Source: Candidatus Hodarchaeota archaeon
GTDB taxonomy: Archaea > Asgardarchaeota > Lokiarchaeia > Sigyniarchaeales > SOKP01
Assembly: GCA_048887225.1 (NCBI GenBank)
Contig: JBHLJY010000006.1
Coordinates: forward strand, 64,001 to 128,000
Reading direction: 5' to 3'
Length of the DNA stretch: 64,000 nt
Below the pieces are notes generated by a model that saw only the letters and a program-made list of their open reading frames with translations, made no database searches and was not told the DNA's origin. The position numbers and the translations under genes were made by a program. Shown here in pieces: positions 26,839 through 28,191 of the stretch; the first letter of the stretch is position 1, and each line of letters starts with the position of its first letter.

Positions 26839-28191
26839 GGCTTCTTCAACCCCTCTTCATTTGCCATTACAATAACGGCTGCATAAGCGGCTCCTGGACC
26901 TCCGATCGAATGAGCAATGGACCGACCTTTTTCAATTGTGACTTGGTGTTTGCCAGCATCTCCTCTAATCTGAAGAGCGGCCTCTCCTGTGCTCATTATA
27001 CCAGTCGCGCCCACAGCATGTCCACAGCCAATTAAGCCTCCCGAAGGACAGCATGGCAATTCACCATTTAGCCAAGGACCTTCGCCGGGCTTTTCGAAAG
27101 AATTTTCAATCCAAGGACCGCCTTCTCCGAATGGTACAAAGCCTAATTCTTCATAAGAAATTACTTCTTGACCGCTAAACGCATCGTGGAGCTCTGCAAC
27201 ATCGATTTGTTCCTTAATCTTGTTGTAGTCGAGCCCTGCCATTTTATAAGCTGCTTTAGCAGCTTCAATGTTTGAATAAAGCCGACCAATGCTCTCTCTG
27301 TTTCCGATAAAACAATCTGTATTTGCAGCAGCGACTCCGGTTATCCATGTAGGCTTTTCCACGCCGAGTTCTTTTACTTTTTGTTCGTTTGCAAGGATTA
27401 ATGCGGCAGAAGCCTCGGAATAAAGACAGCAATCCAGGAGTTTGAAGGGATAACAGATAATTCTTGAGTACATAACGTCTTCGACGGTTACCTTCATTGG
27501 CGATTGAGCCTTTGGGTTGAGCAGAGCGTTCCCATGATTTTTAATGGAAACCATAGCCATATAAGCCAAAAGTTGAAAATATTCAACTGATTGTTTGCTC
27601 TTCGGTCGGGTTTCCAAATTCTTTGTAATGTGCATTTACCATAGAAACATATGAAGATGCCGCCATCATGCCCATAGGATATTTACGGAATATCGCGAAA
27701 TGCGAATTAAATTCTTTCATAAGTCATATCCGCAGAATAGGCAATGGCATTTAATACTTCTGGTGTTGTAACTCCTGTTTGCTAACGCTTTAAACTAAAT
27801 ATTTACAAGATTCGTCATAACAGTCGTTACATTTCTCCAAACCAATGCAGAGACACAAATCCGACAATCCAGATGCAACTTCAGCATAAGCCATTCTCAC
27901 AGTATAACCTCCCGTTGCTCCGCCCGACGCAATTCTCGTGCCAGGTTTGTCATTCATGCCAAGATAACTATTAGTAAATATATCGGGCATGAATTGGCGT
28001 TCAAAAAGCTCATTATAAATTCCATAAACCGTGGACTGCAAATCTTTATGTATAATCTCTGCCCCGTTTTTATTTGCATCATCAAGAGCCAATCTAGTGG
28101 CATCAAACGCCAGCTCAAAATACGTTTTATCAAGATACCTTGCTCTAAAAGGAGTAATGCCTACTCCGATTATCGCAACTCTATTTGGCAT
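26835..28191 (-). CDS. Intron-containing SCP-x-type thiolase-fold protein; exons 28191-27811, 27781-27716, 27681-27595, 27560-26835; 419 aa after splicing
   Basis: Joined frame reads ...LEKCNDCYDE|QTGVTTPEVLNAIAYSADMTYE|YPMGMMAASSYVSMVNAHYKEFGNPTEEQ|MAMVSIKNHGNALLNP..., collinear with the six paralogs in the window; HDAF and GHAVG motifs present. Confidence 0.9.
27561..27594 (-). other. BHB mRNA intron 3 (34 nt)
   Basis: GAGC AA^A CAA...UUG GCUU AU^A: helix GAGC/GCUU, inner stem AGUUGAA/UUCAACU; removal restores the frame. Confidence 0.86.
27682..27715 (-). other. BHB mRNA intron 2 (34 nt)
   Basis: UAUG AA^A GAAU...AUUC CGUA AA^U: helix UAUG/CGUA; removal restores the frame. Confidence 0.86.
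27782..27810 (-). other. BHB mRNA intron 1 (29 nt)
   Basis: GACG AA^U CUU...AAG CGUU AG^C: 4-bp helix GACG/CGUU with two 3-nt bulges; removal restores the frame. Confidence 0.88.

What the first reader, a model, noticed from the sequence alone, without database searches (positions are those of the whole stretch)
27782..27810. Intron 1: near-canonical hBHBh' motif, 29 nt
The RNA reads CUGUU-A-U GACG AA^U CUU-G-UAAA UAUUUAG UUUA-AAG CGUU AG^C A-AACAG. It has a central helix GACG/CGUU, bulges AAU and AGC, an intron stem CUU/AAG plus UAAA/UUUA, and an exon-exon stem CUGUU/AACAG. The in-frame UAA that ends the 133-aa ORF lies inside it. Splicing gives CYDE|QTGV.
Basis: seen in the sequence. Interest (0 to 1): 0.85.

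Follow-up and report, generated by a model that had tools for sequence, protein, structure and literature searches.

The report
tRNA-type mini-intron in Asgard thiolase mRNA
A 29-base insert carrying a stop codon is the first of three tiny tRNA-type introns that break a healthy thiolase-family gene of an Asgard (Loki-type) archaeon, so its messenger RNA very probably has to be cut and re-joined three times, something the papers I could search document inside an archaeal coding sequence only for the single intron of cbf5.

Summary
Confirmed. The 29-nt insert (27782-27810, minus strand) holds the TAA that ends the 133-aa ORF and folds as a bulge-helix-bulge (z -3.3), slightly relaxed at the 3' site. 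It is one of three inserts (29+34+34 nt), exactly the 97 nt by which this gene exceeds intron-free orthologues. Removing them gives a 419-aa thiolase-fold protein under purifying selection (dN/dS 0.03-0.04). Of 89 orthologous genes, 18 carry 29-35-nt inserts at 10 sites. Each insert's 3' end pairs with its own exon (74% full 4-bp helix against 1.4% across sites). Twelve other sequences use this same site, and a synonymous exon change is matched in the intron. A structure-blind comparison of two genomes gave 19 frame-breaking inserts, 14 with the motif (shuffles 1.5). The genome encodes a two-subunit splicing endonuclease with a Crenarchaea-type loop, and RtcB; its only rtcB and uL11 genes are themselves interrupted. 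Best reading (0.93): EndA/RtcB-spliced mRNA intron. No RNA data were available, so splicing is inferred. It works like the cbf5 intron but is multiple, polymorphic and genome-wide. The scan noted this phenomenon before on other DNA (248 notes, at least 81 genomes).

The parts
27811..28191 (-). Exon 1 (381 nt, codons 1-127) of a thiolase-fold gene (SCP2-type/archaeal thiolase domain family)
27782..27810 (-). Intron 1, 29 nt, BHB type; frameshifting and stop-containing (the finding)
27813..27816 (-). Exon strand GACG of the 4-bp central helix
27810..27812 (-). 5' bulge AA^U, predicted cut between 27811 and 27810
   Evidence: cut position inferred from the known EndA rule
27784..27787 (-). Intron strand CGUU of the central helix
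27781..27783 (-). 3' bulge AG^C, predicted cut between 27782 and 27781; relaxed (fifth U-A pair or 2x4 loop competes)
27788..27809 (-). Intron hairpin CUU-G-UAAAU / loop AUUUA / GUUUA-AAG
27790..27792 (-). In-frame TAA ending the unspliced 133-aa ORF
27819..27823 (-). CUGUU, 5' arm of the exon-exon stem
27775..27779 (-). AACAG, 3' arm of the exon-exon stem
27716..27781 (-). Exon 2 (66 nt)
27682..27715 (-). Intron 2, 34 nt, helix UAUG/CGUA, junction TYE|YPM; site not seen in any other orthologue examined
27595..27681 (-). Exon 3 (87 nt)
27561..27594 (-). Intron 3, 34 nt, helix GAGC/GCUU, junction EEQ|MAM; fold z -4.5; site not seen in any other orthologue examined
26835..27560 (-). Exon 4 (726 nt with stop), thiolase C-terminal domain
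26341..26838 (-). Downstream overlapping gene, DUF35/ChsH2-type zinc ribbon-OB protein, probably on the same transcript
   Evidence: co-transcription inferred from the overlap
25970..26338 (-). Third gene of the probable operon; the gene at this position in relatives hits SCP2 (PF02036), the window copy has no Pfam hit

Best explanation
Intron 1 is a real pre-mRNA intron removed by the tRNA-splicing machinery. The transcript folds so that the last six bases of exon 1 and the last six of the insert form a 4-bp helix with a 3-base bulge on each strand. The two-subunit splicing endonuclease EndA cuts after the second base of each bulge (AA^U, AG^C), and RtcB joins the exons, which are held together by the CUGUU/AACAG stem. 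The same must happen at introns 2 and 3 to give the 419-aa protein; unspliced RNA gives a 133-aa stub. Shown: insert, stop, fold, exact restoration of the orthologous protein, site-matched pairing, selection, enzymes encoded. Inferred: cleavage, ligation, expression. The intron most likely has no job of its own: it is one of many tolerated 29-35-nt inserts that come and go in this family's tRNA and protein genes and persist only where their 3' end pairs with the host exon.
For: Gene is 1357 nt against 1260 in the three closest orthologues; the 97-nt excess is 29+34+34. 18 of 89 orthologous genes carry 26 inserts at 10 sites; removal restores 412-420 aa (397 for one cut by a contig end); helix 4/4 in 19, 3/4 in 7. 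In 42 distinct inserts own-site pairing averages 3.71 of 4 against 1.65 across sites; full helix 74% against 1.4%. At this site exon GACG always meets intron CGUU (3 sequences); exon GAUG meets CAUU or CAUC (7), CGUU by wobble (1) or a 3/4 variant (2); GACG with CAUU never occurs. dN/dS downstream of intron 1 is 0.03-0.04, like intron-free pairs. No close intact paralogue in the genome (next hit 36% identity). Structure-blind comparison of about 1100 gene pairs: 19 frame-breaking inserts, 17 of them 29-34 nt, 14 with helix and inner stem against a shuffle mean of 1.5, maximum 7 in 5000. The only rtcB has a textbook 29-nt BHB insert inside GGVGY|DINCG, kept in three other genomes; the only uL11 has 36- and 28-nt BHB inserts. 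EndA catalytic subunit with Tyr/His/Lys and a loop aligning with crenarchaeal EndA (3P1Z, E 5e-35), plus a second subunit lacking the His. tRNA genes here carry 29-32-nt introns of the same build.
Against: The predicted ground state has a 5-bp central helix, and the strict motif lies 4.4 kcal/mol higher; cutting in the shifted register would leave a frameshift. The motif of intron 1 alone reaches only p = 0.026. Its own sequence is unlike the 30-nt family that occupies this site elsewhere, so its conservation cannot be tested directly. The genes compared are kin, so the counts are not independent.
Confidence: 0.93

Rival explanations
1. The inserts are recent hits of a tiny hairpin element that killed the gene; nothing is spliced.
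For: The closest orthologues (97% support clade) lack all three inserts, so they may be young. No RNA data.
Against: Three hits with no other damage and dN/dS 0.03-0.04; inserts at shared sites have diverged widely while the exons stay intact, with matched base changes; single-copy rtcB and uL11 are split the same way; no second copy of any of the three inserts in the genome within 6 mismatches.
Confidence: 0.02
2. The inserts are removed from RNA, but by another route (for example a hairpin-triggered, RtcB-dependent excision like animal SOS splicing, or self-splicing), not by EndA.
For: Each insert has an inner hairpin; RtcB is present; SOS splicing shows such a route exists in animals (PMC12779559, abstract).
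Against: The conserved pairing is exon-to-intron with the exact 2-base offset of EndA cuts; moving one helix strand by one base drops full helices from 11 to 0-2 of 20. 29 nt is far too short for a group I or II ribozyme (established knowledge).
Confidence: 0.03
3. The ribosome bypasses the inserts (translational hopping or frameshifting) and the RNA stays whole.
For: Inserts are short hairpins with stops; cbf5 introns were once taken for frameshifts (PMC2738675).
Against: No matched take-off and landing codons at intron 1 (GAA against TAG); three bypasses in 250 nt; inserts fall in all three codon phases; the same build occurs in tRNAs, which are not translated.
Confidence: 0.01
4. The inserts are excised at DNA level in part of the population, or are assembly artefacts.
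For: Intron-free alleles are the majority among relatives.
Against: An identical Logan contig carries all three; unrelated assemblies carry inserts at the same base; no intron-free copy near-identical to this gene was found (best 78% DNA identity).
Confidence: 0.01

Closest known systems
cbf5 (pseudouridine synthase) pre-mRNA intron of Desulfurococcales and Sulfolobales (Watanabe 2002; Yoshinari 2006; Yokobori 2009, PMC2738675)
   Same: Short intron inside a coding sequence, BHB or relaxed BHB at the borders, host with a two-subunit EndA; missed or misread by gene callers.
   Different: cbf5 has one intron at one site, gained once in a common ancestor. Here there are three in one metabolic gene, ten sites in the gene family, patchy presence within a genus, and many host genes in an Asgard lineage. 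cbf5 splicing was shown on RNA; this was not.
BHB intron in the 5' UTR of Haloferax volcanii HVO_1309 (Schwarz 2020, PMC7714728)
   Same: mRNA substrate of the splicing endonuclease.
   Different: Untranslated region, single case; here the inserts break the reading frame.
Non-canonical tRNA introns of Asgard archaea (bioRxiv 10.64898/2026.10.13.758758) and Thermoproteales
   Same: BHB borders, repeated recent gains, little sequence sharing between sites in Asgard, two-subunit EndA; tRNA introns of this genome have the same 29-32-nt hairpin build.
   Different: That study covers tRNA genes only ('mRNA' and 'cbf5' do not occur in its text).
Host protein: archaeal/SCP2-type thiolase fold with DUF35 partner (PDB 6ESQ, 7PXP; NCBIfam PRK06064, PRK06365)
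   Same: Full-length match, E 3e-42 to 6ESQ; HDAF and GHA motifs; DUF35 gene next door.
   Different: Below every NCBIfam cut-off; Gly where 6ESQ has the Cys of the ACASG motif, so probably not a classical thiolase.

Membership tests
Archaeal BHB (EndA-type) intron | 4-bp central helix formed between the 5' exon end and the intron 3' end | tested here: met
   GACG/CGUU, pair probabilities 0.92-0.93; 4/4 only in a protein-restoring register
Archaeal BHB (EndA-type) intron | Two 3-nt bulges on opposite strands, cut after the second base | tested here: inconclusive
   5' bulge AAU is clean. 3' bulge AGC is available, but the predicted ground state pairs its A as a fifth helix pair; the relaxed loop form costs 1.9 and the strict form 4.4 kcal/mol
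Archaeal BHB (EndA-type) intron | Flanking intron stem and exon-exon stem | tested here: met
   CUU/AAG plus UAAAU/GUUUA; CUGUU/AACAG
Archaeal BHB (EndA-type) intron | Removal at the predicted cuts restores the functional sequence of intron-free relatives | tested here: met
   CYDE|QTGV; with introns 2 and 3 a 1260-nt frame with one terminal stop
Archaeal BHB (EndA-type) intron | Host encodes EndA able to cut relaxed motifs outside tRNA, and an exon ligase | tested here: met
   Catalytic subunit with Tyr/His/Lys and a loop aligning with crenarchaeal EndA, second subunit lacking His, RtcB present; substrate range itself not measured
Archaeal BHB (EndA-type) intron | Spliced RNA or excised circle observed; cleavage by EndA | not testable with these tools
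cbf5 intron (orthologous) | Located in cbf5 at the conserved crenarchaeal site | tested here: not met
   Host is a thiolase-fold gene
Group I / group II intron | Ribozyme core of hundreds of nucleotides | tested here: not met
   29 nt; no Rfam match in the window
Miniature transposon (MITE-like) insertion | Multiple related copies with terminal repeats and target duplication | tested here: not met
   No other copy within 6 mismatches in the genome; exon end GACGAA differs from insert end CGTTAG

The most novel reading that the evidence does not exclude
In this Asgard family the tRNA-splicing endonuclease and RtcB act as a general mRNA splicing system: protein genes, including essential ones, carry several ~30-nt introns with internal exons as short as 66 nt, and these introns are still being gained, each arriving with a 3' end matched to its new site. 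Intron 1 would be an independent recent gain at a site already used by an unrelated intron family, possibly seeded from another intron of the same gene family (site 542).
Probability: 0.55. Interest if true: 0.92.

Novelty: new variant of a known kind. Interest (0 to 1): 0.8.

Why it matters
Textbooks allow archaea one coding-region intron (cbf5). A gene needing three precise cuts and joins, in a genome whose RNA ligase and a ribosomal protein gene also need them, means multi-exon mRNAs exist among the closest prokaryotic relatives of eukaryotes, by a protein-enzyme route unrelated to the spliceosome. It gives a testable system for how introns arise: dozens of recent, datable gains with known empty alleles. 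It also means that Asgard genomes are mis-annotated: the 133-aa stub is on record as a protein in a cluster of 227 similar fragments, and such genes count as broken or absent.

Tried and rejected
A metagenome scan for this junction with or without insert gave four relatives at 75-78% identity, none of this species. A reference-free motif scan of the genome was useless: 49 candidates against 31-57 for shifted controls, mostly gene-gene junctions. My first guesses at host genes were partly wrong and stand uncorrected in notebook entry 2: the 'uL3' host is a 266-aa protein with no Pfam hit (uL3 is intact here and unbroken in nearly all of 94 genomes), and the 'uL11' census hit is a tRNA-Val intron upstream of rpoK; it was removed and the statistics redone. 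The helix count in that entry should be 19 at 4/4 and 7 at 3/4. Origin of intron 1 from the site-542 family: best match 12 of 13 bases, but 2 other unrelated pairs among 465 reach 12, so this is only a lead. The protein tree is a quick one with many open forks, so gains and losses were not formally counted. No structure prediction was run: the fold is settled by sequence.

Full report
Observation. The 29-nt insert at 27810-27782 contains the TAA (27792-27790) that ends a 133-aa ORF. It folds with its flanks at -16.7 kcal/mol, z -3.3, better than all 200 shuffles. The central helix GACG/CGUU has pair probabilities above 0.92. The predicted ground state adds a fifth U-A pair; the form with a 4-bp helix and an open loop is 1.9 kcal/mol higher and the strict drawing 4.4 higher, so the 3' site is relaxed. 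Taken alone the motif would arise in 2.6% of shuffled inserts. A Logan contig is identical to the window over 2603 bases.

Host gene and organism. The closest relatives are Promethearchaeota (Loki-type Asgard) genomes from metagenomes. Their orthologue is an unbroken 1260-nt gene for a 419-aa thiolase-fold protein, followed by a DUF35 gene and an SCP2-like gene. The window's copy is 1357 nt. The 97-nt excess is three inserts: 27782-27810, 27682-27715 and 27561-27594. Removing them leaves 1260 nt with one terminal stop, and exons of 381, 66, 87 and 726 nt. Removing intron 1 alone runs into a stop 25 codons later. All three motifs form together in one fold of the 301-nt region. For each insert, among the registers that best restore the protein exactly one has a 4/4 helix in EndA geometry.

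Comparative evidence at this gene. Among 89 distinct orthologous genes, 18 carry 26 inserts of 29-35 nt at 10 sites; all restore a full-length frame; the helix is 4/4 in 19 and 3/4 in 7. With metagenome contigs the set grows to 42 distinct inserts. An insert's 3' strand pairs with its own exon at 3.71 of 4 positions on average and with other sites' exons at 1.65; full helices 74% against 1.4%. The site of intron 1 is used by 12 other distinct inserts. Where the Asp codon is GAC the intron reads CGUU (three cases, including this one); where it is GAU the intron reads CAUU or CAUC in seven, CGUU (wobble) in one, and a 3/4 variant in two; the mismatching combination is absent. These sequences are kin, so this is a pattern and not a count of independent events. 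Those 12 form one 30-nt family unlike intron 1, and the window gene's nearest orthologues are empty at all three sites, so intron 1 is most simply a separate, recent arrival (inference; the tree is a quick one).

The gene is alive. Downstream of intron 1, dN/dS against three intron-free orthologues is 0.030-0.040, the same as between intron-free pairs (0.036, 0.042). No close intact paralogue exists in the genome.

Genome-wide test. I aligned about 1100 gene pairs between this genome and 2 Mb of a congener without using structure. After removing one hit that proved to be a tRNA-Val intron, 19 inserts broke a frame; 17 are 29-34 nt; 10 have a 4/4 helix and 14 have at least 3/4 plus an inner stem, against shuffle means of 1.4 and 1.5 and maxima of 6 and 7 in 5000. 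Of 16 in-frame, stop-free indels 2 passed; moving one helix strand by one base, or reading the other strand, left 0-2 full helices. Hosts include an acetyl-CoA synthetase-like gene and an FGGY kinase here and, judged from their sequences, actin, uS11, argininosuccinate synthase and phosphofructokinase in the congener. This counts only unshared inserts, in roughly 0.5-1% of compared genes. The only rtcB gene of this genome carries a textbook 29-nt motif (UUGG/CCAA, 8-bp inner stem) inside GGVGY|DINCG, also found in three other genomes of 61 searched. The only uL11 gene needs a 36-nt and a 28-nt removal to match intact orthologues. A cell with these genes can hardly live without splicing mRNA (inference).

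Machinery. Two EndA-domain genes are present. One has the Tyr, His and Lys of the active site and a loop (PLGINKPR) that aligns with the crenarchaeal enzymes, best hit 3P1Z at E 5e-35; this loop and its Lys give broad specificity in Aeropyrum (PMC6379350). The other lacks the His. This fits the two-subunit type reported for most Asgard genomes. tRNA genes here carry 29-32-nt introns of the same build (Glu, His, Ala, Pro, Val).

Mechanism. Shown: the insert, the stop, the fold, exact restoration, site-matched pairing, selection, enzymes. Inferred from known EndA chemistry: cuts at AA^U and AG^C, exon joining by RtcB, probably a circular excised intron. Not shown: any RNA. I put endonuclease splicing at 0.93. 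A regulatory role is not needed: most relatives lack the intron. How such introns arrive is open; none of the three has a copy elsewhere in the genome, and the likeness of intron 1 to the site-542 family (12 of 13 bases) is matched by two unrelated pairs.

Comparison with what is known. It works like the cbf5 intron and meets the sequence-level features of a BHB intron, with one relaxed bulge; it is not the cbf5 intron. The papers I could search give cbf5 as the only confirmed coding-region case, with others merely predicted (PMC2738675), plus a 5' UTR intron in Haloferax (PMC7714728). A 2026 preprint on Asgard introns treats tRNA genes only. Seven literature searches found no report of multi-intron or widespread BHB introns in Asgard protein genes; subscription journals are largely outside that library. 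This scan has noted the phenomenon many times on other DNA, some notes citing RNA contigs that lack the inserts; I could not check those RNA claims and do not count them.

Verdict. Real feature; very probably a spliced mRNA intron; new variant of a known kind; interest 0.8.

Noticed in passing
L278 (G000:C13:33458-33486, +): The only rtcB gene is split by a textbook 29-nt BHB insert inside GGVGY|DINCG; same insert in G002, G021, G065. New ligase would need existing ligase.
   Followed up: yes
L273 (G000:C4, about 65100-65800, -): The only uL11 gene carries two BHB-type inserts (36 and 28 nt) in its N-terminal part.
   Followed up: yes
L098:17044-17097 (G009, -): The actin-like gene of a congener has two BHB-type inserts (31 nt with stop, 30 nt in frame without stop) near its 3' end; this genome's copy, 98% identical in protein, has none. 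In-frame, stop-free introns would be invisible to gene callers.
   Followed up: partly
L089:18890 (G009, -): A uS11-like gene has a 30-nt stop-containing insert with a good inner stem but only 1/4 helix in the standard register; a CAGC/GUUG helix one base away suggests a 4-nt bulge variant.
   Followed up: no
G000:C5:145266 (-): tRNA-Val(CAC) upstream of rpoK carries a 31-nt BHB intron at a non-canonical position and was missed by ARAGORN; only 31 tRNA genes were called in a 98% complete genome, so more are probably hidden.
   Followed up: partly
window 27900-27935 (-), exon 1: The host protein has Gly (RIASGGATGG) where solved thiolases have the nucleophilic Cys; with the DUF35 and SCP2-like neighbours this suggests an aldolase-like or non-classical role.
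   Followed up: partly
window 27561-27594 and L006, L007, L196, L238: Intron 3 sits 8 nt upstream of a site (542) used by an intron family in relatives, and the exon after it (ATGGCTATGG) resembles both intron ends; possible intron sliding, not tested.
   Followed up: no
L277, L329, L321, L025, L230: Other orthologues carry two to four inserts each; sites cluster in pairs a few bases apart (381/384, 444/447/460, 534/542, 920/925), all in near-invariant protein stretches.
   Followed up: partly
G000:C4:215764 (+), C26:24965 (+), C1:392382 (+): Further good-looking BHB inserts from the otherwise noisy motif scan (36, 30 and 32 nt); the first is spanned cleanly by a congener's protein.
   Followed up: no
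cluster 2: Public protein sets hold 227 truncated 127-157-aa fragments of this family, six checked here being products of intron-split genes.
   Followed up: partly
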